From: an uncultured Planctomycetales bacterium | GTDB taxonomy: Bacteria > Omnitrophota > Gorgyraeia > Gygaellales > Profunditerraquicolaceae | DNA length: 64,000 nt | Direction: 5' to 3' | Assembly (NCBI GenBank): GCA_964593005.1 | Contig: CAZQGT010000002.1 | Coordinates: 13,324 to 77,323 of the forward strand | Shown here: in pieces, positions 4,393 to 19,451 of the stretch | How positions within the stretch are numbered: the first letter of the stretch is position 1 | Layout of the letters: every line of letters starts with the position of its first letter | Program-made: the position numbers and the translations under genes | Notes under the pieces: model-generated | What the model was told of the DNA's origin: nothing | What the model saw: the letters and a program-made list of their open reading frames with translations, nothing else | Database searches by the model: none

Positions 4393-5247
4393 ATGGATGG
4401 GAAACAAAACGATCTGAATGCAAATGTGATCAAGGATTTTGGTTCTGAATGGAGCAGGTTTGATCAGAGTATCCTTTCGGCAGCCGATCAAGCGGAAATG
4501 TTTAAGGGTTATTTTAATATATTCCCTTGGCATAAACTTACTTCAAATTCTATCGGCGCCGATATTGGTTGCGGCAGCGGGCGATGGGCTTCTTTAGTCG
4601 CACCGCGCGTTGGGCATCTCTATCTTATAGACCCAAGTAAGGAAGCGTTAGCTGTAGCTCAGAATAACCTCTCGAATTTAAAAAATATTTCTTTTTATCA
4701 AGTTCCGGCAGATGGCCTGCCTTTTAAAGCTGAGAGTCTTGATTTTGCTTATTCTCTTGGCGTCTTGCACCATGTTTCTAATACGCCAGAAGCTATTGTT
4801 TCTATTGCTCGCGTCTTAAAACCCGGTGCGCCATTTTTAATTTATTTGTATTATGCATTAGACCAGCAGCCTCTGTGGTTTCGCGTTATTTGGCGCCTTA
4901 GCAGTATCTTTCGCAAGCTTATTTCCAGAATGCCCAATCGGCTAAAAAATTTTGTTTGTGATGGTATAGCCTCGTTGATTTATTTCCCGCTAGCCAGGGC
5001 AGCATTGTTACTTGATTGGTTTGGGATACTTCCTTGTTCATGGCCTTTAGCTTATTATCGTAGGCGTAGCTATTATGTTATGCGTACAGATGCCCTGGAT
5101 CGTTTTGGCACCCGTTTGGAGAAACGCTTTAGTCGTGCAGAGATTACCGCTATGTTGGTATCCGCCGGATTCACGGATATCCGCTTTTCTGATACGCAGC
5201 CGTTTTGGTGTGCGGTAGGCATAAAGCGGGCTTGTGGGGAAACTTAA
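4393..5247 (+). CDS. Class I SAM-dependent methyltransferase
   Basis: Motif I ADIGCGSGRWASLVAP. Post-I acidic residue in LYLIDPSKEAL. Motif II-like LDFAYSLGVLHHV. Confidence 0.6.
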   Translation: MDGKQNDLNANVIKDFGSEWSRFDQSILSAADQAEMFKGYFNIFPWHKLTSNSIGADIGCGSGRWASLVAPRVGHLYLIDPSKEALAVAQNNLSNLKNISFYQVPADGLPFKAESLDFAYSLGVLHHVSNTPEAIVSIARVLKPGAPFLIYLYYALDQQPLWFRVIWRLSSIFRKLISRMPNRLKNFVCDGIASLIYFPLARAALLLDWFGILPCSWPLAYYRRRSYYVMRTDALDRFGTRLEKRFSRAEITAMLVSAGFTDIRFSDTQPFWCAVGIKRACGET

Positions 5248-5249
5248 TT

Positions 5250-7211
5250 ATGTGCGGGATAACAGGATTTTGGCAATCAGGTAATTTTTCCATCGATACT
5301 GCTAAGGCTGTTGCAGAAAAAATGGCTTCGCGTATTATTCATCGCGGGCCGGATGATTTTGGCACCTGGGTAGACGGAAGTTTCGGTATTACACTAGCGC
5401 ATCGGCGTTTAAGTATTCTTGAGCTTTCTGCGGCCGGTCATCAGCCCATGGTTTCTTTATCCGGCCGATATGTGATTGTTTTTAACGGTGAAATTTATAA
5501 TCACCTAGAATTGCGGCAGGAACTGAACGTAACCGCCTGGCGCGGGCATTCGGATACAGAAACATTACTAGCAGGATTTGAAGCGTGGGGAATTGAGGTG
5601 ACACTTAAAAAAACTGTAGGGATGTTTGCGATTGCGCTTTGGGACCGTAAGGAAAAAATTCTTATGCTTGCGCGGGACCGGATCGGTGAAAAACCGCTTT
5701 ACTATGGATTTCAGAAAAATACATTTATTTTTGGTTCAGAATTAAAAGCGTTTAGGGCACATCCGGATTTTGTCGGCGAAATTGACCGGGATGTTCTTTG
5801 TCTTTACCTGCGGTATTGCTATATTCCTGCGCCATATTCAATTTATAAAGGAATATATAAACTTCCGCCGGGCAACTTTATACAATTTCCCATTGCGGCC
5901 GGAATCGATGAATTACGTTTGGTAAAACCTAAGGCTTACTGGAGTTTAGCTGAGGTTGCGTCGAAAGGACGCGTCCATCCCTTTGTCGGCAGCCTTACGG
6001 ACGCAGTTACTGTTCTTGATAAACAATTGAGGCGGGCAATTGCCTTGCAGATGGTAGCAGATGTGCCGCTGGGTGCTTTTTTGTCTGGTGGGGTTGATTC
6101 TTCAGTAATTGTCGCTCTTATGCAGGCCCAGTCAACCCGGCCGGTAAGGACATTTTCTATTGGGTTTAATGAAGGAGGCTATAATGAAGCCGGATATGCA
6201 AAGGCTGTGGCTAATCACCTTGGCACGGAGCATACCGATTGCTATATTTCATCGGCAGAGGCGATGCGGGTTATTCCACGGCTGGCCGGTATGTATGATG
6301 AGCCATATTCGGATTCATCTCAAATACCTACTTTTTTGGTATCTCAAATGGCGAGTAAGCATGTTAAGGTTTCTCTATCAGGTGATGCCGGAGATGAGTT
6401 GTTTTGTGGTTATAACCGTTACGCGTTGGCTGATATCTGGAGAAAGATTGAGAGAGTCCCATTTGGGCTCAGAAGGATGGCAGGCCGTCTCGTAAGAACG
6501 GTTGGTTTATTAGCCCGAAATAATATTTTTCAACACACAGGAAAAATTTCCGCGTTATCATCCAATATGAGCGAAAAATTGGAGAAACTTTCTTGGCTTA
6601 TGGATAGTGTTGATGATAGTGATTCTCTTTACTATAATTTGGTTTCTAAAGTTATGACTCCGGATCGTGCAGTTTCATCTGCCAGAGAGCCCGGAAGCTG
6701 GCTTACGGAATCAGGATTGAAATTACAATTTTCAGATCCTAAAATTAATATGATGTATATGGATTGTATGACCTATCTACCGGACGATATTTTAGTTAAA
6801 ATTGATCGCGCGGCCATGGCAAATAGCCTTGAAACACGGGTACCTTTTCTTGATCATAGGATTATTGATTTGGCGTGGTCTTTACCTCTTTCTATAAAAA
6901 TGTGCAATGGCCAGAGTAAATGGATATTGAGGCAGGTACTCTACAGATATGTGCCAAAAAGGCTTATTGAGCGTCCAAAGATGGGTTTTGGTATTCCTGT
7001 CGGAGAGTGGATACGCGGCCAACTTAGAGATTGGGCAGAGGCGCTGTTAAGCGAATCTCGCATACAACAAGAGGGGTTTTTTGATGCCCAGTTTATCCGA
7101 TTACGCTGGCAGGAGCATCTTTCCGGAAAACGTAATTGGTTCCATTTTCTCTGGAGCGTGTTGATGTTTCAGGAGTGGCTAGAAGAACAAAAGCAAGGGG
7201 TATTAGGTTAG
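5250..7211 (+). CDS. Asparagine synthase (glutamine-hydrolysing)-like amidotransferase, AsnB family
   Basis: With the start moved to the ATG at 5250 the protein begins MCGITGFW, giving the Ntn Cys2 nucleophile of the class II glutamine amidotransferase domain. The synthetase domain carries the PP-loop SGGVDSS. Length matches AsnB/WbpS-type enzymes. Confidence 0.75.
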   Translation: MCGITGFWQSGNFSIDTAKAVAEKMASRIIHRGPDDFGTWVDGSFGITLAHRRLSILELSAAGHQPMVSLSGRYVIVFNGEIYNHLELRQELNVTAWRGHSDTETLLAGFEAWGIEVTLKKTVGMFAIALWDRKEKILMLARDRIGEKPLYYGFQKNTFIFGSELKAFRAHPDFVGEIDRDVLCLYLRYCYIPAPYSIYKGIYKLPPGNFIQFPIAAGIDELRLVKPKAYWSLAEVASKGRVHPFVGSLTDAVTVLDKQLRRAIALQMVADVPLGAFLSGGVDSSVIVALMQAQSTRPVRTFSIGFNEGGYNEAGYAKAVANHLGTEHTDCYISSAEAMRVIPRLAGMYDEPYSDSSQIPTFLVSQMASKHVKVSLSGDAGDELFCGYNRYALADIWRKIERVPFGLRRMAGRLVRTVGLLARNNIFQHTGKISALSSNMSEKLEKLSWLMDSVDDSDSLYYNLVSKVMTPDRAVSSAREPGSWLTESGLKLQFSDPKINMMYMDCMTYLPDDILVKIDRAAMANSLETRVPFLDHRIIDLAWSLPLSIKMCNGQSKWILRQVLYRYVPKRLIERPKMGFGIPVGEWIRGQLRDWAEALLSESRIQQEGFFDAQFIRLRWQEHLSGKRNWFHFLWSVLMFQEWLEEQKQGVLG

Positions 7212-7239
7212 GGCATACTTTTTAACCCTAGGAGGTTTT

Positions 7240-8172
7240 GTGCTTAAATTTGTTTGCGTATTACCAAATGGCGCTTTAAAGAAGGTGCTAAAACGATTGC
7301 GTTTATATCATCCGTCGCTGCATCGTTTGATGGAGCTCTCTAGAGGTGATAAAGAGTCACTCCTTAGCCGATCCAAAGAATTTAGTGGGCTCTTACAAGA
7401 TCTTTTGATTAATGGTGTTTGGAAATATACTAATCCGGGGCGGTTGGCTGGTTTAGATGAGTGGGTTGCATCAATCCTGCCGCGTTTTAGTTCTCAGCCA
7501 TTCAGGATGCTGGATGTGGGGGGGTCTGATGGCAGTACCACTTTTGATACAATAAATTATTTTAAAAAAAAATGTGGCTTAGGAGTGAAGGCGTATATAC
7601 TTGATATGCAGTTACGCTTGCATTGTTTTCGCCGGGGATACTTGTGGTATTACCTTACTTATTGCCATAGCCCGCTATTAATCCAAATTGGTCCGTTGGG
7701 CATTTTATTTGAAGAGATTAAGTCCAAGGAGGGAGTGGTTTTTAACCTGATTGTCCGGGTAATAAGAAAGTGTATGCAACGTTTTTCTTTGGAAAAATAC
7801 ATGAATAATTACGGGGATCTTCTTTTAGAGAACCCGTTGGCTAGAAACAACTCAGATATAATTTGGCTGGAGCAGGATCTTTTCCAGTTTGATCCAGCAT
7901 TGAAAGGATCTTTTGATTTTATCCGTTGCAGCAATGTATTAAATGATTGTTACTTTAGCCAAGCCCGGATTTATGATGCGTTGCGTTTATTGGCCATTTA
8001 TCTAAAGCCAGGAGGCCTGCTTTTGGTGTCTCGGACAATAGAAGATTCTACCGGTTTTTTGAATCACGCAAGTTTGTGGGTTAAGAATGGCGAAGGTCTG
8101 CAGCATTTATCTGATTTAAATGGCGGCTCAGAAGTTAAAAAGTTTATGCAAGTATCGGCGGATCCGCTATAA
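7240..8172 (+). CDS. Hypothetical protein, possibly a methyltransferase-fold protein
   Basis: RMLDVGGSDGSTTFDT resembles Rossmann motif I and LKPGGLLLVS resembles the motif after it. Otherwise there are no recognisable motifs. Confidence 0.3.
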   Translation: MLKFVCVLPNGALKKVLKRLRLYHPSLHRLMELSRGDKESLLSRSKEFSGLLQDLLINGVWKYTNPGRLAGLDEWVASILPRFSSQPFRMLDVGGSDGSTTFDTINYFKKKCGLGVKAYILDMQLRLHCFRRGYLWYYLTYCHSPLLIQIGPLGILFEEIKSKEGVVFNLIVRVIRKCMQRFSLEKYMNNYGDLLLENPLARNNSDIIWLEQDLFQFDPALKGSFDFIRCSNVLNDCYFSQARIYDALRLLAIYLKPGGLLLVSRTIEDSTGFLNHASLWVKNGEGLQHLSDLNGGSEVKKFMQVSADPL

Positions 8173-9762
8173 TTGGGATATCAAAATATGTTGAATTACA
8201 AAACAAAAGCTTTATGGCAAATTTGGGGCATTGCTTTTTTATATACCTGCGTTGTCAGTGTATTTATACAATTTTTATTGCTTCCTTATCTATTACCTCA
8301 TCTGCATGCGGGCGGGGGGTTGTTTCTAGGGTGCCCGGATTGTATAGGTTTCAATCAGATTGCAGTTAATATGGCTGAGAAGATTAAGACAGCAGGTTGG
8401 GGGGCGTGGGAATTTCGTCCGCAAAGCCATACAATAGCAGGCATGGCATCCGCTATATACGCATTAACCTGGAGCAAGCTGTGGGTTTTAATTCCATTAA
8501 ATGCTGTTTTGCATGCGAGTGCGTTTTTGGTTTTATTTCAGCTTATAAATTTATTTATCGATGATAAAAACAGGTCTTTTTTATGCGCATTGCCATTTTT
8601 AATATTTCCTTCAAATTTACAATGGACTTCACAACTGCATAAGGATGGTTTTAGTATATTGGGGATACTATTGTTTTTACAGGGCATTATTTCGTTATCC
8701 AGATTAGAAAACTGGAGAGAGAGAAATTGGCATATAATTATTATCCGTTCATTCGCTTGTTGTATTGCAGGGATTGCTTTGATTTGGTTTGTTCGGCCTT
8801 TTATGCTAACGATGATTCGTTTTTTTACGGCTCTACTTTTTTCTTTCTTGATTGCATTTTTTTCAATTCGGACGCTCAGAAGTATATTATCATGGCAAAA
8901 AACACTATTTACATTTGTATCCTTTTTAATAATCTTTTTCATATTATCACAGGTAAACGTAAAATTCGGATCAGGCGATCTTCTAGAAAGCCCGAAATTC
9001 TCTGGGCCTGTTTTTCCGTTGAAGGAGCATGTGGCCCAGAAGATTAGTGTGCCTGAAACACAAAAATCTGCAGTATATACCACAACTTTAATTACCGCAT
9101 CGCCTTTGAAGGAGCATGTGGCCCAGAAGATTAGTGTGCCTGAAACACAAAAATCTGCAGTATATACCACAACTTTAATTACCGCATCGCCTTTGAAGGA
9201 GCATGTGGCCCAGAAGATTAGTGTGCTTGAAACACAAATAGAAAGTCATTGGAAGAGGTCATCTTGGCTTCCTTTATTTATTGAGAACAAGGTTTATTCC
9301 TTAGCTCAAGCTAGGAAGGGCTTTCGTTTTTCTGGCTATGAAGCTAAAAGTAACATTGACCATAATTTTGGTTTTAACAGTGTAGAAAGCATGCTTATTT
9401 ACCTTCCGCGAGCAGCCCAAATAGTTTTATTCGCGCCTTTTCCTAATCAATGGTTTACTGAAAACAATTCTTCCGGAAGTTCTTTTATGCACAGGATATC
9501 TGCTTTTGAGATGACAGTGACATATTTTACTTTAATTTTTCTACCTTTTGCAATTTGGTTCTGGCGCAGGCGCATTGAAATCTGGGTAATATTTTTATTT
9601 TGTATTTATATGATGCTTATTTACGGATTGGTTATCTGTAATATAGGCACGTTATATCGAATGAGGTATGTGTATATTATGACCTTGCTGGGTTTGGGAA
9701 TAGCGGGTTTTTTTGTTTTTCTGGATAAACTAATTATCAGAAGGAAGCAGGCTACTGGCTGA
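8173..9762 (+). CDS. Polytopic membrane protein (GT-C-like, unclassified) carrying an internal 29-aa tandem repeat
   Basis: There are multiple hydrophobic helices at both ends. The central region holds 2.6 copies of PLKEHVAQKISVPETQKSAVYTTTLITAS. Confidence 0.45.
   Translation: MGYQNMLNYKTKALWQIWGIAFLYTCVVSVFIQFLLLPYLLPHLHAGGGLFLGCPDCIGFNQIAVNMAEKIKTAGWGAWEFRPQSHTIAGMASAIYALTWSKLWVLIPLNAVLHASAFLVLFQLINLFIDDKNRSFLCALPFLIFPSNLQWTSQLHKDGFSILGILLFLQGIISLSRLENWRERNWHIIIIRSFACCIAGIALIWFVRPFMLTMIRFFTALLFSFLIAFFSIRTLRSILSWQKTLFTFVSFLIIFFILSQVNVKFGSGDLLESPKFSGPVFPLKEHVAQKISVPETQKSAVYTTTLITASPLKEHVAQKISVPETQKSAVYTTTLITASPLKEHVAQKISVLETQIESHWKRSSWLPLFIENKVYSLAQARKGFRFSGYEAKSNIDHNFGFNSVESMLIYLPRAAQIVLFAPFPNQWFTENNSSGSSFMHRISAFEMTVTYFTLIFLPFAIWFWRRRIEIWVIFLFCIYMMLIYGLVICNIGTLYRMRYVYIMTLLGLGIAGFFVFLDKLIIRRKQATG
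9015..9240 (+). repeat. In-frame 87-bp tandem direct repeat inside a CDS
   Basis: Copy 1 is 9015-9101, copy 2 is 9102-9188, and a diverging partial copy 3 runs 9189 to about 9240. Copies 1 and 2 differ at a single nucleotide (ccgttg vs cctttg). Confidence 0.9.
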
Positions 9763-10469
9763 TGAAAAAAAATTTCTTTAGATTATTATCAATTGTAATT
9801 ATATTTATATTAATTCTATGTGTTTTAAATATAGGCGTAACTACTAAGCAGGGGATCAATTATAGGGTTAGCGAAATAAAATTACCCATATACCTTAAAA
9901 TTTTGGATTTTGTAGACAGGCATTATAACTATAAGAATTTAGTAAAAAATATTCTTGGCGATACAAAGGATGAACCTGCTAAGGTAATAAAAATATTCAA
10001 CTGGGTAACTGCTAATCTTAATAAAAACCCAAAAGAGCTGCCTATTATTGATGATCATCCGCTTAATATTTTGATAAGAGGCTATGGGGTAGCTGATCAG
10101 TTTGAAGATATTTTTACAATCCTATGTACTTATGCAGGAATGGATTCATTTTTTAAAAGTTTTAATAACCATTCTGGCGGTGCTTATTATATTTCATTTG
10201 TTAAAATTCAAGGAAAATGGTGCCCGTTATCGGCTTTTGAAGGAGTATATTTAACCAAAAACGGCGCTATCGTTTCAGTAAACGATATTCTACTTGATAA
10301 AAGTATTTTATTTCCATTTGCATTGAAGTTAGCAAATTTTGAATCGGATACCTTTGTAAAAGAGATAGGTAATATTGATTTTGAGGCAGATTGGCCTTTG
10401 AGAACAAAAGGTCAAAGTCCTATAGGCAGGATTTTATATAGCATTAAAAACATGTTGAGTTTCGACTAG
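9762..10469 (+). CDS. Hypothetical membrane-anchored protein, possible transglutaminase-like fold with the catalytic Cys replaced
   Basis: N-terminal TM helix, and the gene is very AT-rich. GYGVADQFEDIFTILCTYAGMDS resembles the transglutaminase-like core (GxCxDFAxLFVALCRAAGIP) but has Ala where the nucleophile Cys would be. Confidence 0.25.
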   Translation: MKKNFFRLLSIVIIFILILCVLNIGVTTKQGINYRVSEIKLPIYLKILDFVDRHYNYKNLVKNILGDTKDEPAKVIKIFNWVTANLNKNPKELPIIDDHPLNILIRGYGVADQFEDIFTILCTYAGMDSFFKSFNNHSGGAYYISFVKIQGKWCPLSAFEGVYLTKNGAIVSVNDILLDKSILFPFALKLANFESDTFVKEIGNIDFEADWPLRTKGQSPIGRILYSIKNMLSFD

Positions 10470-10525
10470 AGCTATTATTTAATATATTGTTTAGGAGCTT
10501 AGCACTTAATTTTTTCTAGTAGGGA

Positions 10526-10553
10526 GCCTGCGCGTTTTCAGGCAGCTTTTATT
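10526..10553 (+). terminator. Weak candidate intrinsic terminator
   Basis: GCCTG-cgcgtttt-CAGGC stem-loop followed by agcttttatt. The stem is only 5 bp. Confidence 0.15.
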
Positions 10554-10565
10554 AGTATGTAACCA

Positions 10566-11687
10566 TTGTTTAGAAGAAGGTCACATCGTATGAAGAAACT
10601 TAAAGTAATTTTTGCCTGCATTCTGTTATTGTTGTCAGCCGAGCTCCTGGCGCGGGTTTTGGCCCCGGAATACAGGTCTCTGGACCACCGCGTGGGAATC
10701 ACCGGAGGCGTTCCGTTTTTATTAAATTCTTTTGGACTGCGGGATGACGAATTCAATATTGATAAGGGGGATGAGTATCGAATATTATGTATTGGTGACT
10801 CTGTTACTTTTGGAACACAAAATCGTTTGCAAGACATATATCCTAAAGTCCTCGAAAGAATTTTGAATGAAGGTAGTAAAATTCACTATAGGGTTATCAA
10901 CGCAGGGGGATTGGGGGGTTATCCGCAGCTAGAGCTTGAGTATATTAAAGCAAAAGGAATTGAGTTTAAGCCTGACCAGGTGATTTTAGGCTTGTGTCTT
11001 AATGACATAGGAAATAGTTATGCATCTATAGATAGTGAACAATCACTTGTAAAAATCCCTAATTTCTGGAAAAATGTAAATGATTTCCGGGCATACCGTG
11101 ATCCTTTTTTATGGAATAACAAGCTGTCATTTGCCGCAAATATTGTGGCAAATATTAAAATGCCGTTGAGTAAGTTTCGCTGGTATCTCAGAGGGAGAAG
11201 CTATCTGTTTGGGTTTATTGATGTTAATATGACCGGGTTTTTATATCGGTCTGGATTAAAAAAATATTCTTTTGATATGTACCGGGAAAAGGAATGCATC
11301 CTGAGTTTTGGTATTGATAAAACCTCAGCCTTGGGATGGAAGAAGCTTGAGTCATCTCTTGTCGGAATGAGCCAATTTCTAAAAGAAAGAAATATCGGTT
11401 TTATTGTAGTGGTATTTCCCTATGAATTTCAGCTTAGTGATAATGCACGAGATAATTTTTTCCAAATCGATAAGAACAGGTTTACTATAAATCCGCAGCA
11501 AAGGGTTGTTGCCTTTGGGAAAGAGAATAATATTGCAGTTATCGATATTTTACCTGAGTTTCAGAAAAGCGGAAAAAAACTTTACTATCCGCTGGACTAC
11601 TGTCATCCGAATGCATACGGCCATGAGATCGCTGCGCGCAGTATTTATAATTTTTTAAAGCGGAAAAAGATCCTGGCGTTGCAATGA
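10566..11687 (+). CDS. SGNH/GDSL-family hydrolase (esterase / O-acyl-modifying enzyme), membrane-anchored
   Basis: N-terminal TM or signal sequence. Block I is CIGDSVTFG, block II NAGGLGG, block III GLCLNDIGN and block V DYCHPNAYGH. Confidence 0.6.
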   Translation: MFRRRSHRMKKLKVIFACILLLLSAELLARVLAPEYRSLDHRVGITGGVPFLLNSFGLRDDEFNIDKGDEYRILCIGDSVTFGTQNRLQDIYPKVLERILNEGSKIHYRVINAGGLGGYPQLELEYIKAKGIEFKPDQVILGLCLNDIGNSYASIDSEQSLVKIPNFWKNVNDFRAYRDPFLWNNKLSFAANIVANIKMPLSKFRWYLRGRSYLFGFIDVNMTGFLYRSGLKKYSFDMYREKECILSFGIDKTSALGWKKLESSLVGMSQFLKERNIGFIVVVFPYEFQLSDNARDNFFQIDKNRFTINPQQRVVAFGKENNIAVIDILPEFQKSGKKLYYPLDYCHPNAYGHEIAARSIYNFLKRKKILALQ

Positions 11688-11981
11688 GGCAAGGAAATAA
11701 GATGATCACGCAGGTCATTTAATGACATTAGCCAGCTTGTGCATTTATTCCGAGCTGTGGGCATTGCTTTAAAGCAAAAGTGCTTGTGGGGCGTCGGAAG
11801 GCAGAATATAATAAAGTTGCGCCATTTTGTCCGTTGAATTATTAGTTACTTGCTCAAGAAGTTATTAGGCAGGATTGGCCAGAAAACGAGGTAGTTTTCT
11901 AGCCTCAGCCTATGTGGTTCATGTTGTATCTGGCGTAAAAAAATAATGGTTTTATAAAATGGGCACATTCCTAACAACTCT

Positions 11982-13688
11982 ATGAAGATTCTTTTGTGTA
12001 ATATAGCTGTACGTAAAAAACCCGACCCTTTTCCTCCTGTTGCTTGCACGTGTTTAATGAACGCTCTAAAAAGAAGCGGATATCAATCTGTTTTTTATGA
12101 TATCGACGCAAGGAGGCCTTCGCCTGAAGAGCTTTTTGTTTATTTTAAGAGAGAGCAATTTGATCTTGTAGGGATTAGCGCTGTTGTATCGACAGGATAT
12201 AAGTATACTAAAAATTTAGCTGGCATAATCAAGAATGCCTGTCCAACTACTAAAATAATATTGGGAGGGAATTTGGCTGTTGCCTATAAGGTAGTTTTAC
12301 GTAAATGTCAGATAGATTTATGCGTCATTGGGGAAGGTGAGAGGGTTTTGTTAAACCTGGTTAAATATTTAGATAAATACGGAAGCTTTGAGCCTGCTAG
12401 AGAAGAGTTGTTTAAGATCAAGGGGGTAGTTTTTTTGGATTCCCGGGGAACTTGTAAATTTACTGGCAACGATGAGCTTATCTCTAGTGACGAGATAGAG
12501 GAGCCCGATTATAAAATATTAGACGAATTCTCCATTATTTCTCAGTATATACAAGATCCTTTGACGAGAGCTGATTTCGTTATCGATCCGCGTACCCACG
12601 AGGCAAAACGTCGAGGGAAAAAGATGGCAACTATTTTTACTTCTAAGGGGTGTGTGAATGCTTGCACTTTTTGTCATCGATGGGTAAAGGGTTATAGGGT
12701 AATTCCAATAGATAAAGTAATTTCTACAATGAAATACCTGATCGATAAATATAGCGTAGGATTCTTTTGTATCAGCGATGAATGTTTCGGTGAAGATAAA
12801 GAATGGCTTGAGCAGTTTATCGGCCAGCTAAAGCCGCTGGATATCCTTTTCCAGGTATCTGGGGCGCGGGTATCGATTATTAGAAAAGACCCTACGATTT
12901 TAAAAAGACTAAAAGAGGTTGGGTTGACAGCGCTATATTTTGGGATAGAGAGCGGAAGCGATAAGATGCTTAAGGTAATGGAGAAAAATGTGTCGAAAGT
13001 TGAAAATATAGAAGCAATGAAAATATGCTCTGAAGCAGGCATCTTTACGATCATCCAGCTTGTTATCGGACTACCGGGAGAAAACGATTTTACAATCAGC
13101 GAGACAATAGATTTTATTAAAAAAGCGACTGGAGAATTGCCTTCTCTTCCGTTGGTGGTTGTGAATTATCTTCAGGCTTTGCCGGGTACGCCATGCTATG
13201 AATTCTTGCGCTATAATGGTCTTCTCGGCAAGACTATTGAAGACGAAGAAGGGTATCTTTTAAGGGTATCCGATATAGACGCCGGCGAGTTCAGGCAGTA
13301 TCTTAATGTTTCTGAAGAATCGCTGCCTAAGGTTAAACTATGGAGGACCAAGATTTATTTCCTGCCGATGATCCATTGGCTTAAATCTCATGGATGGAGA
13401 TTTCCTAGCAGGCAAAACTATAAGCTTCGGGATAATCCGGGTAGCCGGGTTTCCATAAAAGCGCTTTTTAAAGAATATCTTAAAACTAATATTTGGTTAT
13501 ATCGAATAATCGATATTTGCGGTGAATGGTTCTGGGGAGTAATATTGACGTTGGATATATTTTCTATATATGGCATTAGGAAGGCCCTATTAATTTTACT
13601 GGGGATTAAAAAGGATGAGGGGAGGGTGCAATTTAAGATTAAAGGTAAAACCCTCAGAGAAATTGTAAAAATGAATGAATACTCGTAA
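11982..13688 (+). CDS. B12-binding-domain radical SAM protein (class B)
   Basis: N-terminal region of about 200 aa (MKILLCN...) consistent with a cobalamin-binding Rossmann domain. The radical SAM triad follows (ATIFTSKGCVNACTFCHRW). Confidence 0.7.
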   Translation: MKILLCNIAVRKKPDPFPPVACTCLMNALKRSGYQSVFYDIDARRPSPEELFVYFKREQFDLVGISAVVSTGYKYTKNLAGIIKNACPTTKIILGGNLAVAYKVVLRKCQIDLCVIGEGERVLLNLVKYLDKYGSFEPAREELFKIKGVVFLDSRGTCKFTGNDELISSDEIEEPDYKILDEFSIISQYIQDPLTRADFVIDPRTHEAKRRGKKMATIFTSKGCVNACTFCHRWVKGYRVIPIDKVISTMKYLIDKYSVGFFCISDECFGEDKEWLEQFIGQLKPLDILFQVSGARVSIIRKDPTILKRLKEVGLTALYFGIESGSDKMLKVMEKNVSKVENIEAMKICSEAGIFTIIQLVIGLPGENDFTISETIDFIKKATGELPSLPLVVVNYLQALPGTPCYEFLRYNGLLGKTIEDEEGYLLRVSDIDAGEFRQYLNVSEESLPKVKLWRTKIYFLPMIHWLKSHGWRFPSRQNYKLRDNPGSRVSIKALFKEYLKTNIWLYRIIDICGEWFWGVILTLDIFSIYGIRKALLILLGIKKDEGRVQFKIKGKTLREIVKMNEYS

Positions 13689-13704
13689 ATGGGGGGTATA
13701 ATAA

Positions 13705-14583
13705 ATGATTCATAAGAAAGTTAAGATTGGGACTAGGCAGGTTGGGGATAATTATCCATGTTGCATCATAGCTGAGATTGGCATAAATCACAACGGCTCT
13801 ATAGACATTGCAAAGAGATTAATTAATGTTGCCGTTGAATCAGGGTGTGATGCCGTTAAGTTCCAAAAGAGGACTGTGAGTAAGGTTTATACAAAAGAAG
13901 AACTGGCCAAACCAAGAGAGAGCCCTTTTGGGACTACTAACGGTGATTTAAAAAGAGGGCTCGAATTTGGTGCTAAGCAATATAGAGAGATTGATCTTTA
14001 CTGTAAAGAAAAAGGAATCTTGTGGTTTGCATCATGTTGGGACGAAGAATCAGTCGATTTTATGAAACAATTCGACCCGCCATGTTATAAGATAGCGTCT
14101 GCTTGTATAACTGACGATAAACTTTTACGTTACCATAAGAAAGAAGGTAAACCTATAATTCTCTCAACGGGCATGAGTGATATTTCGATAATCGAACACG
14201 CAGTTGATATTTTAGGGGAAGATAATCTTATAATTATGCATTGTACCAGTACCTACCCTTCAAAGCCTGAGGAGTTGAATCTTATGGGTATAGAAACATT
14301 AAAAAATAAATTCGCTGTTCCCATAGGTTATTCGGGACATGAGGTTGGTCTTTACACTACATTTGCGGCTGCTGTTTTAGGTGCATGTAGTATTGAAAGG
14401 CACATCACTCTTGATAGGGCTATGTGGGGGAGTGATCAGGCGGCATCAGTGGAACCTATTGGAATAAAGAGGCTTGTAGTTGATATAAGAAATTGGGAAT
14501 TAGCCAAGGGTGATGGTAAGATTTGTATATACGAAAGCGAAATGCCAATTATGAAAAAATTGAGAAGAGTGGGGTCAGTATGA
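13705..14583 (+). CDS. N-acetylneuraminate synthase (NeuB) family, sialic/ulosonic acid synthase-like, short form without the C-terminal SAF domain
   Basis: CCIIAEIGINHNGSIDIAKRLI is the canonical NeuB/PseI/LegI N-terminus. The protein is 292 aa against about 340 aa for NeuB, so the antifreeze-like domain is missing. Confidence 0.7.
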   Translation: MIHKKVKIGTRQVGDNYPCCIIAEIGINHNGSIDIAKRLINVAVESGCDAVKFQKRTVSKVYTKEELAKPRESPFGTTNGDLKRGLEFGAKQYREIDLYCKEKGILWFASCWDEESVDFMKQFDPPCYKIASACITDDKLLRYHKKEGKPIILSTGMSDISIIEHAVDILGEDNLIIMHCTSTYPSKPEELNLMGIETLKNKFAVPIGYSGHEVGLYTTFAAAVLGACSIERHITLDRAMWGSDQAASVEPIGIKRLVVDIRNWELAKGDGKICIYESEMPIMKKLRRVGSV

Positions 14584-15380
14584 GTCTTTATGGCTTAGGT
14601 TGTATAAATGTAGAGCTTACTAGCAGATGTAATAAGGCATGTTGGATATGCGGAAGGCGTAAAGTGGATAGGGATTATCCGGGGTTTGCCACCGAATACG
14701 CAGATATGGATTTTGATCTGGTGGTTAAGATAGCCTCTCAACTCCCGCCGAATATCGTTGTTCAATTTCACCGGGACGGCGAGGCGTTACTCTATCCACG
14801 ATTCGGCGAGGCGGTTAGCCTCTTTAAGAAACAGATAAAGAATATCGTAACAAACGGCAAGCTGATCGTTGAGAAAGCCGGAGAGATTATAGGTAATCTT
14901 GATACTTTATCAATCTCTGTTTTTGAAGGCGATGATGAAGCCGATGAACAATTTAAATTAATAAAAGAATTCCTTAGAATTAAAGGGGACAGTAAGCCGT
15001 ATACGAGCATTAGACTCATAGGCAATGTCGACCAAGTACGGTATAAAGATTTGAATGCGCTTATTATAAAAAGGGTACTTCACTCCCAGATGGGCAGCTA
15101 TAATTACCATAAAAAAGATCCGACGATTCCCGAGATTGGGATCTGCTGGGATTTCCTTCATCATTTAAGTGTTAACCGGCAAGGAAAAGTTTCTATTTGC
15201 GTTCGCTTTGATCCTCGGTGGTTAGGTGTCATAGGAGATGCTAATAAGCAGTTGCTCGGAGATATATGGAATAGTCAAAGGCGTATGGAATGGTTGGAAT
15301 ATCATAAAGCTGGTAGAAGAGATAAGATTCCCCTATGTTCTTATTGCCATTTCTGGGGAGTACCTACATCCCCTGCCTAA
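14580..15380 (+). CDS. Radical SAM protein with C-terminal Cys pair (possible twitch/SPASM-like)
   Basis: Start moved to the ATG at 14580 (MSLYGLG...), which overlaps the NeuB stop as ATGA. CxxxCxxC is present (TSRCNKACWICGRRK). C-terminal LCSYCHFWG. Confidence 0.55.
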   Translation: MSLYGLGCINVELTSRCNKACWICGRRKVDRDYPGFATEYADMDFDLVVKIASQLPPNIVVQFHRDGEALLYPRFGEAVSLFKKQIKNIVTNGKLIVEKAGEIIGNLDTLSISVFEGDDEADEQFKLIKEFLRIKGDSKPYTSIRLIGNVDQVRYKDLNALIIKRVLHSQMGSYNYHKKDPTIPEIGICWDFLHHLSVNRQGKVSICVRFDPRWLGVIGDANKQLLGDIWNSQRRMEWLEYHKAGRRDKIPLCSYCHFWGVPTSPA

Positions 15381-15402
15381 AACATACAGGAAAGGAATTT
15401 GT

Positions 15403-16152
15403 ATGGCGAATAGCGTGGTAGCATTAATTCCGGCGCGAGGCGGTTCAAAAGGTGTGGTTGGTAAAAATATCAGATATCTGGCCGGCCACCCTTTGATTGC
15501 GTATTCGATAGGAGTTGCCCGGATGTCCGGAAGTATTGGCCGGATTATTGTTTCTACTGATTCTTTAGAAATTGCAGATATGGCTCGCGCATATGGGGCT
15601 GAAGTGCCTTTTATGAGGCCAAGTGAGATATCTCAGGATAGATCAACTGATTTTGAATTGTTTCAGCATGCTGTTCAATGGTTTGAGCGGGGTAGTTCGA
15701 TACCTGAATTGATGATACACCTGCGGCCGACCACTCCGTTTAGGGATGCCGAAGAGATCGATCGGGCTGTTAGCTTAATACGATCTCACCCAGAGGCGAC
15801 ATCTCTACGATCGATCCATGAACTTTCTGAGCCTCCGCATAAGATGTTTCAATTGGATCCCCAAGGTTACCTGAAAGGTTTTTTTCCTGACGATCCAAGG
15901 CCAGAATATTATAATTTGCCCAGGCAGATATTCCCTAAGGCGTATCATCCGAATGGCTATGTTGATATCATCAAGTTGGCATATCTCCAGCGGTATGCTG
16001 CCCTGCATGGGCCACGTATACTCGGTTTTATTACTCCGGTATCGAATGAAATCGACCGTATTGAAGATTTTGAGTATTTAGAGTATTGCGTTAGCCGGAT
16101 CAATAGCCCGGTTCTTGAATATTTAAATAAGAATTTTCCCGGAAAGGATTAA
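15403..16152 (+). CDS. Acylneuraminate (CMP-ulosonic acid) cytidylyltransferase family, NeuA/KdsB-like
   Basis: Start moved to the ATG at 15403, with AGGAAAGGAA upstream. MANSVVALIPARGGSKGVVGKNIRYLAGHPLIAYSI is the classic CMP-NeuAc synthetase N-terminus. Confidence 0.7.
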   Translation: MANSVVALIPARGGSKGVVGKNIRYLAGHPLIAYSIGVARMSGSIGRIIVSTDSLEIADMARAYGAEVPFMRPSEISQDRSTDFELFQHAVQWFERGSSIPELMIHLRPTTPFRDAEEIDRAVSLIRSHPEATSLRSIHELSEPPHKMFQLDPQGYLKGFFPDDPRPEYYNLPRQIFPKAYHPNGYVDIIKLAYLQRYAALHGPRILGFITPVSNEIDRIEDFEYLEYCVSRINSPVLEYLNKNFPGKD

Positions 16153-16155
16153 TAT

Positions 16156-17553
16156 ATGGCTGGCAGCGATTTTAAGAAAACGCCGCAGGTAGTTAGGCCA
16201 ATCAAGACAAAATATAGAAAGATCAAAACGATGATTCCGGCACCCGGATATTCGCTGATTTTTAAGAATTTGGAAAAATATGAATCGCGCTCTATGCACG
16301 GGCAGTTACCTATTGTTTGGGATAAGGCGATAGGTTTTTCCGTTTTTGACAAGTATGGCAATCAATGGATTGATTTTACCTCGACGATATTTGTTGCAAA
16401 TGCGGGCCATGCAAATCCTGGCGTTATTCGGAGTATTCGTAATCAGCTCAATCATAAATTGTTACATACGTATGTGTTTGCCAGTGAAATACGAGCAAAA
16501 TTTCTAAAAAAACTTATAGAGATTACGCCGAAACAGTTTCAAAAAGCTTTTTTGCTTTCTTCTGGAACCGAGGCTACTGAATGTGCGTTTAAACTGATGC
16601 GGATGCATGGGCAGACTATTAGGCCGTCAAAGATCGCAATTATTTCTTTCCGAGGCGCCATGCACGGCAGGACTATGGCTGCGGAGATGTTAAAAGGCAA
16701 CCCTAAGACTTCATCATGGATTGGTTATGTTGATCCGAATATTTATCATTTGCCTGTTCCCTATCCTTGGCCCAGGCGTTCAACGGTCAAGAAGGAATAT
16801 GATTGGGGTAGGCATTTTGAACAGGATATGAATGGGCTGAAAAAAAATGGCCTTGATTTTAAGAATATTGCAGGTTTTATTATTGAATCGTATTTAGGGT
16901 GGGGTGCGATATTTTATCCCAAGCCGTATATACAAATGCTGGCTGATTTTGCCAAGCGTTACGATAGCCTGGTAGTTTTTGACGATATTCAAGGCGGATT
17001 TGGTAGAACCGGAAAGTTGTTTGCGTATCAGCATTATGGAGTTGAACCCGATTTATTATGCTTAGGTAAGGCAATGAGCGGTTCATTGCCGCTCTCAGCG
17101 GTGATCGGCAGGCGCTCGATTATGGATTTACCTGATGTCGGTTCAATGAGTAGCACCCATTCGGCAAATCCGCTTTCTTGTGCTGCAGGCCTTGCTACAC
17201 TTGAGGCAATCGAAGCGAATGATTTGGTGAAAAAGTCTTTTAGTAAAGGGAAGATCCTGCATTCGTATCTCAACGGTTTGAAATCTAGGTATCCGGAAAG
17301 GATTGAGCATGTATTTGGCAAAGGATTGCTCGCTGGGGTCATATTCAAGGATCCCGCAAGCGGTAAACCTGATAGTGTGTTTCCAATGAAAGTGTGTGAA
17401 AGGGCAATGCAAAGAGGATTACTTTTAGTGTATACTGGTAGAGAGTCTATTAAAATCGGCCCCCCACTGGTGATTTCAGATGATGCGCTTTTAGAAGGAT
17501 TAGGTGTGTTCGAAGAGTCTATTAAAGAAATAATCGCAGAGGAGACGGTATGA
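16156..17553 (+). CDS. Class III (aspartate aminotransferase family) PLP-dependent aminotransferase
   Basis: LLSSGTEATECAFKLMR and FDDIQGGFGRTGKLFA are characteristic class III motifs. The lysine in CLGKAMSG is the likely PLP lysine. Confidence 0.7.
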   Translation: MAGSDFKKTPQVVRPIKTKYRKIKTMIPAPGYSLIFKNLEKYESRSMHGQLPIVWDKAIGFSVFDKYGNQWIDFTSTIFVANAGHANPGVIRSIRNQLNHKLLHTYVFASEIRAKFLKKLIEITPKQFQKAFLLSSGTEATECAFKLMRMHGQTIRPSKIAIISFRGAMHGRTMAAEMLKGNPKTSSWIGYVDPNIYHLPVPYPWPRRSTVKKEYDWGRHFEQDMNGLKKNGLDFKNIAGFIIESYLGWGAIFYPKPYIQMLADFAKRYDSLVVFDDIQGGFGRTGKLFAYQHYGVEPDLLCLGKAMSGSLPLSAVIGRRSIMDLPDVGSMSSTHSANPLSCAAGLATLEAIEANDLVKKSFSKGKILHSYLNGLKSRYPERIEHVFGKGLLAGVIFKDPASGKPDSVFPMKVCERAMQRGLLLVYTGRESIKIGPPLVISDDALLEGLGVFEESIKEIIAEETV

Positions 17554-17987
17554 TAGTGGCACGACATATCGGGATAGTTGTTTATGATTTGGAAAAAATG
17601 GTGCATTTTTACAAGGATTTGCTTGGGTTAAAAGTTGTAAAACGCATGGATGAGTCTGGTAGTTATATTGATACTCTCCTTGCATCTCCGGGGACACATA
17701 TTAAAACGGTTAAGTTATCGTCTGGCGGTGCTGTGTTTGTTGAGTTATTATATTTTCATTCGCATCCCGGACAGATTCGTCTTCAAAAAGGTTTATTTGA
17801 TAACGGTATATCCCATATCGCGTTTACGGTTAAGGATATCGATTCGGAATGTAAAAAATTGACTAAGGCAGGAGTTTTGTTTGTTTCTCTCCCGCAAAAT
17901 TCGCCTGATGGCCAAGCGAAAGTTGCTTTTTGCAGGGATTATGAGGGCAATCTTCTGGAATTAGTCGAGGAATTACACCCCGCGTAA
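17550..17987 (+). CDS. VOC (glyoxalase/bleomycin-resistance/dioxygenase) family protein
   Basis: HIGIVVYDLEKMVHFYKDLLGLKV N-terminus and ISHIAFTVKDID second half match the paired beta-alpha-beta-beta-beta VOC modules. Confidence 0.55.
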   Translation: MIVARHIGIVVYDLEKMVHFYKDLLGLKVVKRMDESGSYIDTLLASPGTHIKTVKLSSGGAVFVELLYFHSHPGQIRLQKGLFDNGISHIAFTVKDIDSECKKLTKAGVLFVSLPQNSPDGQAKVAFCRDYEGNLLELVEELHPA

Positions 17988-18006
17988 GTGGAGTGATAGA
18001 GGAGAT

Positions 18007-19326
18007 ATGAAAATAGGCAATCGGAATAAAAAAGTATTATTAAGCATAGGCATAAGCATTATTTCCATTTTTCTTATCGAAATTTTTTCGATCGGCATTC
18101 TTTTTGTAAATGAAATATTGCATAAAAGGCCGATTGACGATTTCTTTCTGGCTAAATTCGCGATAACCCGGCCGATAAGTTATTTATGCCATCCTTCAAA
18201 GAACATGTCCTATTTTAAGAAAGCTAAACAAAAGAATATCGGTGATTTATCGGCAGTCAGTGAAGATAAATGGAGATATCTTTTTCCGCCTGATACGATT
18301 TTAGGGTGGAGGCTGGCAAAAAATGTTAAATGTACCCATTATAGTAAATATATATATATTACGAATGATCAGGGTTTTATGTCTACAGGGGAATCCGATT
18401 TTTATTATGATCCCGTGAAAGCGAAAGATGTTTATCGAATAATTGTTGTTGGAGGCTCGACAGTCTTTGGCCAGGGCGCCTATACGCCTGCTGAGAATTT
18501 ACCCGCGACAATATATAATTATCTGCAGAAAATTCATCTAAGGAATGATAAAAAAGTAACATATGAAGTCATTAACGCCGGAATCTCAGGCTATCTTTCT
18601 AACCAAGAATTTTTGTATATATTAACTGAACTATTAAGTTTTCATCCGGATCTTATTATCGTATATGATGGCTGGAACGACGCAAATTATAACAATTTGT
18701 TATTGGGTAAAACACAAGAAGGTATAAATTCGTTAAAATTGTTAACTCATTACGAATTAGAAAAACGACTGAGTAAAAGTTATACTATTTCGGGCAGCTT
18801 TTCTACTTTCTGTGGTGTTCTTAAGAGCTACGGGAACATTTATTTAAATCAATCTGGAGCTGTAACATTGTTGCGGATGGCTATACGCAAATACAAAAAT
18901 GTGGGTTATGTGCAGAAGCTTTCTAAATATGATTATCAACAAATGAACGTTGAGACCTATAAGGAAAATCTCACTAGAATGATTATGTTGTCTAAGTTTT
19001 ATCACTTCCGGATAGGCATATTTTTACAACCGATTATGGGCGTTGGTAATAAGGTATTGACTCAGGAGGAAAGAGGGATCCTTCAGGATATAGCTGATTT
19101 GCGGTGTCGAGTTCTATTTTATGAAGCGGCTAGAGATGCCTTCCAAGATTTAAAGCAGGAATATGGCAATGATCGGGAAGTGACCATAAAAGATCTATCC
19201 GGATCTTTTGATAATATCGACTATACTGTTTACGCCGATTCCGGTCATTTATTGCTCATCGGTAACCAGATTATAGCTAAGAATATTATCGGGGCGCTTA
19301 AATTATCTGATGCCGTCAATAAATAG
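18007..19326 (+). CDS. SGNH/GDSL-family hydrolase, membrane-anchored
   Basis: N-terminal TM helix. Block I is IIVVGGSTVFG, block II NAGISGY, block III YDGWNDANY and block V ADSGHLL. Confidence 0.55.
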   Translation: MKIGNRNKKVLLSIGISIISIFLIEIFSIGILFVNEILHKRPIDDFFLAKFAITRPISYLCHPSKNMSYFKKAKQKNIGDLSAVSEDKWRYLFPPDTILGWRLAKNVKCTHYSKYIYITNDQGFMSTGESDFYYDPVKAKDVYRIIVVGGSTVFGQGAYTPAENLPATIYNYLQKIHLRNDKKVTYEVINAGISGYLSNQEFLYILTELLSFHPDLIIVYDGWNDANYNNLLLGKTQEGINSLKLLTHYELEKRLSKSYTISGSFSTFCGVLKSYGNIYLNQSGAVTLLRMAIRKYKNVGYVQKLSKYDYQQMNVETYKENLTRMIMLSKFYHFRIGIFLQPIMGVGNKVLTQEERGILQDIADLRCRVLFYEAARDAFQDLKQEYGNDREVTIKDLSGSFDNIDYTVYADSGHLLLIGNQIIAKNIIGALKLSDAVNK

Positions 19327-19408
19327 GCGCGAAAAAGATGCGATTACTGGAAGGGCATATAAATTTGATCTCTAATTGTTGCGGAAAGAAGATTAAGCGC
19401 TGGGTCCG

Positions 19409-19426
19409 ATGAAAATTTATTTTCAT
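19409..19426. promoter_or_regulatory. Perfect 18-bp palindrome (ATGAAAATttATTTTCAT), candidate operator
   Basis: Read directly from the sequence. It lies 26 bp upstream of the ATG at 19452, inside a 125-bp intergenic gap. GGAGG ribosome-binding site at 19436-19440. Confidence 0.3.
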
Positions 19427-19451
19427 AAATTATTTTTGGAGGAATTATATC

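What the first reader, a model, noticed from the sequence alone, without database searches (positions are those of the whole stretch)
9015..9240. Near-identical 87-bp in-frame tandem repeat inside a membrane-protein gene
Copies 1 (9015-9101) and 2 (9102-9188) differ at one nucleotide. A third diverged partial copy follows. The unit is 29 codons long, so gain or loss keeps the reading frame and would shorten or lengthen a predicted loop of the 8173-9762 membrane protein.

Near-perfect nucleotide identity means either a very recent duplication or ongoing recombinational repeat-number variation. Such variation is a known route to surface variation (VNTR/contingency-type loci). It could also be an assembly collapse or expansion artifact.
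Basis: seen in the sequence. Interest (0 to 1): 0.55.

Follow-up and report, generated by a model that had tools for sequence, protein, structure and literature searches.

The report
In-frame repeat in glycosyltransferase loop
A real, freshly duplicated 87-base in-frame repeat sits in a floppy, length-tolerant outer loop of an uncharacterised membrane glycosyltransferase; it looks like ordinary, tolerated repeat slippage, not a surface-variation switch.

Summary
The repeat is real. It spans 9019-9238, with period 87 (29 codons) and 2.5 copies. Copies 1 and 2 are 87/87 identical. The 46-nt third copy has one change (CCT→CTT, Pro→Leu). It is the only substantial tandem repeat in the 64-kb window.

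A MEGAHIT contig is 100% identical to the window over 15 kb except for exactly one unit fewer (1.5 copies). Copy number therefore either varies within one strain or was mis-assembled; reads are needed to decide.

Across the family this loop is 0-288 aa long. Unrelated in-frame repeats occur in it in 21/103 and 9/98 members, against 0/200 conserved control segments.

My reading is replication slippage or unequal recombination in an unconstrained linker of an inner-membrane enzyme. A contingency-type surface-variation locus is not supported. The finding is ordinary, with a modest family-level curiosity.

The parts
8188..9762 (+). Gene for a 524-aa polytopic membrane protein with a GT-C glycosyltransferase fold. 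An alternative TTG start at 8173 gives 529 aa. The protein is identical to database protein P0121, which comes from a 78,656-nt NCBI/JGI contig.
9019..9105 (+). Repeat copy 1 (87 nt). Encodes LKEHVAQKISVPETQKSAVYTTTLITASP, residues 278-306 of the 524-aa protein.
   Evidence: pLDDT below 50
9106..9192 (+). Repeat copy 2 (87 nt), 87/87 identical to copy 1, residues 307-335. One 87-nt unit of this array is absent from the MEGAHIT contig L001.
9193..9238 (+). Partial copy 3 (46 nt) with one mismatch at 9227 (Pro→Leu). Encodes LKEHVAQKISVLETQ, residues 336-350. These residues are the confidently modelled helix 336-349, which leads into the conserved IExHW motif.
8956..9252 (+). The hypervariable part of the long loop after TM7 (about residues 257-355 of the 524-aa protein). 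It corresponds to the family region that ranges from 0 to 288 aa.
9253..9460 (+). The conserved second part of the same loop. It carries the W..WLP.FIE.K motif and the invariant residues R376, D391 and R408, which are probably part of the active site on the extracytoplasmic face.
   Evidence: invariant columns in the 78-sequence alignment; helices in the model

Best explanation
The feature is a genuine, very young in-frame tandem duplication of 87 bp (29 codons), present as 2.5 copies.

Where it sits. It lies in the disordered, hypervariable first half of the long loop that follows transmembrane helix 7 of an uncharacterised GT-C-fold glycosyltransferase. This is an enzyme of the type that uses lipid-phosphate-linked sugars. 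The gene sits in a large surface-glycan biosynthesis island of an uncultured bacterium, most likely an Omnitrophota.

How it arose (inferred). The likely mechanism is replication slippage or unequal recombination between direct repeats.
- An older 1.5-copy state (A-B-A', with one substitution between A and A') carries a 46-nt direct repeat.
- Misalignment within the first 34 nt of that repeat adds or removes one 87-nt A-B unit.
- One such step converts the 1.5-copy allele into the 2.5-copy allele, or the reverse.

Why it persists (inferred). This part of the loop is a sequence- and length-tolerant tether that joins the conserved 7-helix module to the conserved periplasmic helices carrying invariant Arg and Asp residues. 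Adding 29 disordered residues there should have little effect on catalysis.

Family pattern. The same tolerance explains why unrelated in-frame repeats have arisen again and again at this position in the family.

Shown versus inferred. Shown: the repeat, its frame, the fold, the disorder, the family-wide hotspot, and the one-unit difference between two assemblies. Inferred: the topology, the slippage mechanism, near-neutrality, and that the assembly difference is biological.
For: - Repeat anatomy.
- It is the only such repeat in the window.
- Disorder: copies 1-2 have pLDDT below 50, while the third partial copy is a confident helix.
- Topology: seven TM helices precede the loop, and Lys/Arg cluster in the N-terminus and alternate loops. 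Asp51 in the first external loop is invariant. This matches the GT-C arrangement, with the catalytic carboxylate on the extracytoplasmic side (PMC10154233).
- Copy number: L001 (ENA ERZ27248937, k141 contig) is identical to window 4521-19762 except for one missing 87-nt unit.
- Family hotspot: loop length is 0-266 aa in the first set and 3-288 aa in the second. Internal repeats with z>=5 occur in 21/103 and 9/98 loops, with many unrelated unit sequences, against 0/100 and 0/100 in conserved segments.
- DNA-level in-frame repeats occur in the same loop of other genomes: 105 bp x1.9 (L003), 102 bp x2.4 (L004), 15 bp x3.7 (L005).
- Strains L002 and L003 (98% identical) differ in copy number.
- Loop composition is enriched in Glu, Lys, Pro and Asp and depleted in hydrophobic residues.
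- Differences between older repeat copies are roughly as often non-synonymous as synonymous (pN/pS about 0.7 and 1.7, tiny counts).
Against: - No reads were available, so the 1.5 versus 2.5 difference could be an assembly effect. Logan contigs of SRR8437217 break exactly at the repeat, which shows it is hard for short-k assemblers.
- Near-neutrality is inferred, not measured.
- The repeated peptide includes a copy of a segment that is a structured helix in its native position. This could interfere with folding or compete for contacts.
- The topology rests on the positive-inside rule and on analogy to solved GT-C enzymes, not on experiment.
- The taxon, and hence the presence of an outer membrane, is inferred from the nearest relatives only.
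Confidence: 0.7

Rival explanations
1. The copy-number difference, and possibly the copy number in the window itself, is an assembly artefact. Under this reading the repeat exists, but short-read de Bruijn assemblers collapsed or mis-counted units, so there is no biological polymorphism.
For: - The perfect repeat (208 nt of exact periodicity) is longer than a typical 150-nt read.
- Logan k=31 contigs end at 9048 and restart at 9197, exactly at the graph branch points.
- The two conflicting contigs are otherwise 100% identical over 15 kb, as expected if they come from the same or sister read sets.
- Tandem repeats are a documented source of assembly error (PMC6868369, found; title and abstract only were read).
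Against: This is my own reasoning from the sequence.
- With the mismatch at 9227, no 141-mer and no 127-mer is repeated in the 2.5-copy allele, and none is repeated in the 1.5-copy allele. At the final k of MEGAHIT (the contig is named k141_) either allele is therefore a simple path.
- A 1.5-copy contig needs k-mers that join the left flank to the T-variant copy. Such k-mers do not exist in a 2.5-copy genome.
- Collapse at k=127-141 of an allele with 3.5 or more copies would give 2.5 copies, not 1.5.
- Diverged repeats with different copy numbers in related strains (L002/L003, 93% between copies) cannot be artefacts. They show that the loop really does change this way.
Confidence: 0.3
2. The repeat is a functional VNTR (contingency-type locus). 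Under this reading, repeat number tunes the reach or gating of the external loop. That would change the activity or acceptor specificity of the glycosyltransferase and so create heritable, reversible heterogeneity in the surface glycan.
For: - The repeats are perfect and a one-unit difference is seen in an otherwise identical background.
- The gene sits in a glycan island.
- The loop is contiguous with conserved, probably catalytic residues.
- In solved GT-C enzymes, flexible external loops take part in substrate binding (my own knowledge of ArnT and PglB, not tested here).
- Repeats recur at this site in the family.
Against: - The change is in frame, so there is no on/off switch.
- The loop is predicted to be periplasmic, on an inner-membrane enzyme, and so not directly exposed to phages or predators.
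- Loop sequences are unrelated between relatives and range from 0 to 288 aa, so no particular length or sequence is required.
- Most family members (about 80-90%) have no repeat.
- No other gene in the island carries a repeat tract.
Confidence: 0.1
3. The repeat is old and fixed, a structural repeat domain conserved in orthologues.
For: None beyond the presence of a third partial copy with one substitution.
Against: - Copies 1 and 2 are identical at all 87 positions, synonymous sites included.
- A near-clonal contig lacks one unit.
- The closest non-identical homologues (59-62% identity) have unrelated loop sequences.
- The peptide pattern KEHVAQKI, used with five other patterns, confirmed no relative in the metagenome scan, and the exact DNA word found nothing in two collections.
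- The AF2 model predicts no fold for copies 1-2.
Confidence: 0.02

Closest known systems
GT-C superfamily membrane glycosyltransferases (ArnT/GT83, PMT/GT39, PglB-STT3/GT66) and their flexible external loops
   Different: The protein has no significant sequence match to any Pfam or NCBIfam GT-C model, and only 3 of 78 relatives weakly hit PMT_2. There is no large soluble periplasmic domain. The loop here is hypervariable in length and repeatedly invaded by tandem duplications, which to my knowledge has not been described for those enzymes.
Long identical in-frame tandem repeats in bacterial surface proteins (e.g. group B Streptococcus alpha C protein, staphylococcal Spa/Clf repeat regions); own knowledge, not tested here
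   Same: Units of tens of codons are nearly identical at the DNA level. Copy number changes by slippage or recombination and the frame is preserved.
   Different: Those proteins are surface-exposed antigens or adhesins, and repeat number alters antigenicity or reach. Here the host is a predicted inner-membrane enzyme, and the repeat is in a predicted periplasmic loop.
Repeat-containing low-complexity linkers of envelope proteins (TonB Pro-rich spacer, TolA domain II, FtsK linker); own knowledge
   Same: The composition is rich in Glu, Lys, Pro, Ala and Val. Length varies between strains and species, and sequence change is tolerated.
   Different: Those linkers connect separate domains and span a compartment. 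Here both ends of the segment are anchored in the same membrane protein, so it is a loop and not a spacer.

Membership tests
GT-C fold glycosyltransferase superfamily | Polytopic membrane fold superposable on solved GT-C enzymes | tested here: met
GT-C fold glycosyltransferase superfamily | Conserved acidic (catalytic) residue in the first extracytoplasmic loop | tested here: met
   Asp51 (524-aa numbering) is invariant in 78 sequences and lies at the start of the first helix of the loop after TM1. Structural equivalence to the catalytic Asp/Glu of ArnT, PMT or PglB was not checked residue by residue.
GT-C fold glycosyltransferase superfamily | N-terminus in the cytoplasm, active-site loops on the extracytoplasmic face | tested here: inconclusive
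   The positive-inside count on the model's helices fits N-in and C-in with the repeat loop outside. This is a prediction only.
GT-C fold glycosyltransferase superfamily | Uses a polyprenyl-phosphate-linked sugar donor | not testable with these tools
   The genomic context is a glycan island with a Wzx-like flippase, Wzy_C proteins and GT4 enzymes. This is suggestive only.
Pfam PMT_2 (PF13231) / ArnT-like family | Sequence match above the family threshold | tested here: not met
   The window protein has no Pfam hit at E<=0.01. Only 3 of 78 relatives hit PMT_2, best E 1.3e-5. A PDB profile search found nothing significant.
Contingency / VNTR surface-variation locus | Hypermutable repeat tract with copy-number polymorphism in the population | tested here: inconclusive
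   The units are perfect. Two assemblies with identical flanks carry 2.5 and 1.5 copies. No read-level data were available, and Logan contigs break at the repeat.
Contingency / VNTR surface-variation locus | The repeat lies in a surface-exposed or host/phage-interacting protein | tested here: not met
   The fold is that of an inner-membrane GT-C enzyme, and the loop is predicted to be periplasmic.
Contingency / VNTR surface-variation locus | Repeat number changes expression or phenotype | not testable with these tools
   The unit is 29 codons, so no frameshift switch is possible. The phenotypic effect is unknown.

The most novel reading that the evidence does not exclude
The hypervariable first half of the external loop of this unannotated GT-C family might be a deliberately evolvable element. 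Under this reading, its length is set by easily gained and lost tandem repeats and tunes which acceptor or what chain length the enzyme makes. Alternatively, the Thr/Ser/Pro-rich repeats might themselves be glycosylated, as described for extracytoplasmic disordered regions in streptococci (PMC12041528, abstract only). Repeat slippage would then give a population of near-clonal cells with different surface glycans.
Probability: 0.07. Interest if true: 0.6.

Novelty: new member of a known kind. Interest (0 to 1): 0.25.

Why it matters
In itself this is an ordinary example of an in-frame tandem duplication tolerated in a disordered linker.

It has modest practical value in three ways:
- It flags a locus where assemblies of the same strain disagree by exactly 87 bp. 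That is a caution for protein databases, and the locus is a possible strain marker.
- It draws attention to a large GT-C-fold family with no Pfam or NCBIfam model (at least 1,256 clusters at 50% identity with E<=1e-30).
- It shows that one specific loop of that family is a recurrent hotspot for independent tandem duplications. Anyone designing constructs or interpreting variation in these enzymes can use this as a natural map of where the fold tolerates insertions.

Tried and rejected
- Pfam and NCBIfam scans of the protein gave no hit.
- A PDB sequence-profile search gave only chance matches.
- An exact 32-nt word from the repeat is absent from metagenome contigs and genome contigs.
- The protein-based scan of metagenome contigs found no relative, so no additional assemblies crossing the repeat could be obtained there.
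The 12-sequence alignment gave 6 loci.
- Exact look-ups of the 524-aa and 529-aa products and of P0121 in the contig index found nothing. The source contig could not be fetched, and its organism name is not given.
- I looked for another copy of either half of the unit elsewhere in the window, as a possible donor sequence or mobile element. There is none.
- I looked for a repeat that would explain why two other assemblies start at 4521 and 4534. There is none.
- Literature searches for repeats in polymerase or GT loops and for Omnitrophota envelopes gave nothing directly relevant.
- Rejected readings: an old fixed repeat domain; a frameshift phase-variation switch (the unit is a multiple of 3); a gene on the minus-strand ORF 8538-9170 (it lies inside the well-supported + strand gene and has no support).

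Full report
**1. The observation**

Tandem Repeats Finder reports a single array at 9019-9238 with period 87, 2.5 copies, 99% matches and no indels. A base-by-base comparison at an offset of 87 shows that 9019-9105 and 9106-9192 are identical at all 87 positions.

The third copy is only 46 nt long (9193-9238). It differs at one base: C at 9053 and 9140 versus T at 9227, which changes CCT Pro to CTT Leu. After 9238 the similarity stops abruptly.

In that register there are two differences, not one, and the third copy is truncated, not diverged. Those are minor corrections.

The unit is 29 codons and in frame with the ORF 8173(TTG)/8188(ATG)-9762. It is the only substantial tandem repeat in the 64-kb window. 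All exact repeats of 25 nt or more in the window belong to it, and neither half of the unit occurs anywhere else in the window.

**2. The host gene**

The 524/529-aa product has no Pfam or NCBIfam match and no sequence relative in the PDB. It nevertheless belongs to a large family. 144 relatives were found in the word-indexed search. A full profile search found at least 1,256 cluster representatives at 50% identity with E<=1e-30. Only 3 of 78 aligned relatives weakly match Pfam PMT_2.

The model has these elements, in order:
- one TM helix;
- a long first external loop with two helices, starting at the invariant Asp51;
- six more TM helices;
- the long loop that holds the repeat;
- conserved amphipathic helices carrying invariant R376, D391 and R408;
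- three more TM helices.

This is the conserved-module plus variable-module layout described for GT-C enzymes, whose catalytic carboxylate and active site face the extracytoplasmic side (PMC10154233). Lys and Arg cluster at the N-terminus, in the TM2-3, TM4-5 and TM6-7 loops, at 459-462 and at the C-terminus. The predicted topology is therefore N-in and C-in, with the repeat loop outside the cytoplasmic membrane. This topology is a prediction.

**3. Context**

The whole window is one co-directional glycan-biosynthesis island. Its genes include:
- GT4 glycosyltransferases and many methyltransferases;
- an AsnB-type amidotransferase directly upstream of a methyltransferase-like gene and the GT-C gene;
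- NeuB and a cytidylyltransferase;
- several B12-binding radical SAM enzymes;
- a Wzx-like flippase and a YfhO-like protein;
- two Wzy_C proteins.

Relatives of the GT-C gene in species-representative genomes are mostly Omnitrophota MAGs, with one Planctomycetia MAG and one gammaproteobacterial fragment. 'Omnitrophota' is therefore an inference, at about 38% G+C.

**4. Where the repeat lies in the protein**

Copies 1 and 2 (residues 278-335 of the 524-aa protein) fall entirely in the segment with pLDDT below 50 (269-334). The third, partial copy (336-350) is the confidently predicted helix 336-349, which leads into the conserved IExHW...WLPxFIExK motif.

The Pro→Leu difference fits this. The native helix has Leu, and the two displaced copies have helix-breaking Pro.

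The likely history (inference) has three steps:
- An older event created A-B-A', the 1.5-copy state.
- One substitution then accumulated between A and A'.
- A very recent slippage or unequal exchange within the first 34 nt of the 46-nt A/A' repeat added one A-B unit. This gave A-B-A-B-A' with two identical units.

A single step in either direction links the two alleles.

**5. Copy-number difference**

The best database hit, P0001, is the same protein minus exactly 29 residues. Its contig (ENA ERZ27248937, k141_563910, 35.8 kb) is 100% identical to window 4521-19762 over the 15,155 nt I could fetch. The only difference is one missing 87-nt unit. The two 'mismatches' BLAST reports are alignment overlap inside the repeat.

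The 2.5-copy protein is on record as P0121, from a 78,656-nt NCBI/JGI contig. Logan contigs of run SRR8437217 carry the same strain but stop at 9048 and restart at 9197. Those are the branch points a k=31 graph would have for either allele, so they do not discriminate.

My own reasoning on k-mers is as follows.
- Because of the mismatch at 9227, the perfectly periodic stretch is 208 nt in the 2.5-copy allele and 121 nt in the 1.5-copy allele.
- No 127-mer or 141-mer is therefore repeated in either allele. Each allele is an unambiguous path at the final k of common assemblers.
- A 1.5-copy contig needs k-mers that a 2.5-copy genome does not contain.
- Collapse of a longer allele would give 2.5 copies, not 1.5.

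I therefore lean (about 65-70%) towards a real difference between or within populations. Without reads the artefact explanation cannot be excluded.

**6. The family pattern**

I aligned 113 relatives and cut out the segment between the end of TM7 and the conserved Trp. It is 0-266 aa long (median 46) and cannot be aligned between subgroups. The rest of the protein varies little in length (SD 12 aa, against 39 aa for the loop). The segment is enriched in Glu (4.3x), Lys (2.6x), Asp (2.0x) and Pro (1.9x). It is depleted in Leu, Phe, Trp and Cys.

Results of a self-alignment test against shuffled sequences:

| Segment tested | Members with internal repeats (z>=5) |
|---|---|
| Loop, first set | 21 of 103 |
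| Loop, independent set of 50%-identity representatives | 9 of 98 |
| Conserved N-terminal control | 0 of 100 |
| Conserved C-terminal control | 0 of 100 |

The units are unrelated to each other. Examples are EASPSENST, KKAVP, VNPVT, AIEDPTA, EDYKKITAxIPEDKK, VSQPAxxxQPIAEKPPVKKEAPI and EEKVESALPVAAK... These are many independent origins.

At the DNA level, the same loop carries in-frame repeats of 105 bp x1.9 (93% identity between copies) in L003. It carries 102 bp x2.4 (92%) in an Omnitrophota MAG (L004). It carries 15 bp x3.7 in a Planctomycetia MAG (L005).

L002 and L003 are 98% identical strains that differ in copy number in this loop. P0023/P0031 and P0066/P0074 are further protein pairs with one versus two units.

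Differences between the older copies are about as often non-synonymous as synonymous. The counts are very small, so this is a hint of relaxed constraint only.

**7. Interpretation**

The simplest account is a tolerated slippage product in a length- and sequence-insensitive tether of an inner-membrane enzyme. The window's copy is the youngest example seen in this family.

The contingency or surface-variation idea is not supported. The change is in frame, so there is no switch. The protein is not a surface protein by fold, and the loop is predicted to be periplasmic. Relatives function with anything from 0 to about 290 residues there.

It cannot be fully excluded that loop length modulates the enzyme. 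The variable part is directly followed by conserved, probably catalytic residues. From my own knowledge, flexible external loops of ArnT and PglB participate in substrate binding. I give that reading about 10%.

**8. Novelty and score**

In-frame VNTRs in disordered linkers are well known, so the finding is a new member of a known kind. The unannotated GT-C family and its loop hotspot are mildly interesting side results.

Interest: 0.25.

Noticed in passing
window 1-64000: The whole window is one co-directional glycan-biosynthesis island. It is unusually rich in B12-binding radical SAM genes: 11982, 21774, 24582, 26042 and 56199, plus SPASM/radical SAM genes at 30, 14523 and 50027. It also has many methyltransferases, NeuB (13705), a cytidylyltransferase (15238), a Wzx-like flippase (29903), a YfhO-like membrane protein (27611) and two Wzy_C proteins (44019, 60812).
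   Followed up: partly
window 8188-9762 and relatives P0001-P0253: The host protein belongs to a large GT-C-fold family that has no Pfam or NCBIfam model. A profile search found at least 1,256 cluster representatives at 50% identity with E<=1e-30 and 3,000 with E<=0.001. Only 3 of 78 members weakly hit PMT_2.
   Followed up: partly
window 4521-4534 (inside the methyltransferase gene 4393-5247): Two other assemblies of the same strain begin at almost the same point: the MEGAHIT contig at window 4521 and the Logan contig at 4534. The window has no internal repeat there. This may mark a strain-variable junction upstream, or a repeat located elsewhere in the genome.
   Followed up: partly
window 5205-7211 and 9762-10469; L003, L004, L006: An AsnB-type amidotransferase gene lies upstream of the GT-C gene in three relatives' loci. 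The 235-aa weakly transglutaminase-like gene downstream is conserved in L004 (65% identity). In the window its ATG overlaps the GT-C stop codon (TGATG), which suggests translational coupling.
   Followed up: partly
L002 1051-1650 vs L003 2615-3214 (last 600 nt of the two genes): Between these two 98%-identical strains, the last 600 nt of the gene show 9 non-synonymous and 1 synonymous difference. The first 900 nt show 3 non-synonymous and 7 synonymous differences. The excess is unexplained and the counts are small.
   Followed up: no
window 9227 (residue 346 of the 524-aa protein): The only difference among the copies is Pro, in the two disordered copies, versus Leu, in the copy that forms the predicted helix 336-349. 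This suggests the helix copy is the original and constrained one.
   Followed up: partly
window 8173 vs 8188: Gene callers in two sources start the protein at ATG 8188 (P0001, P0121). The upstream TTG start gives MGYQN-, which aligns with the MGR..EN- N-termini of relatives P0002-P0004. The true start is therefore uncertain.
   Followed up: no
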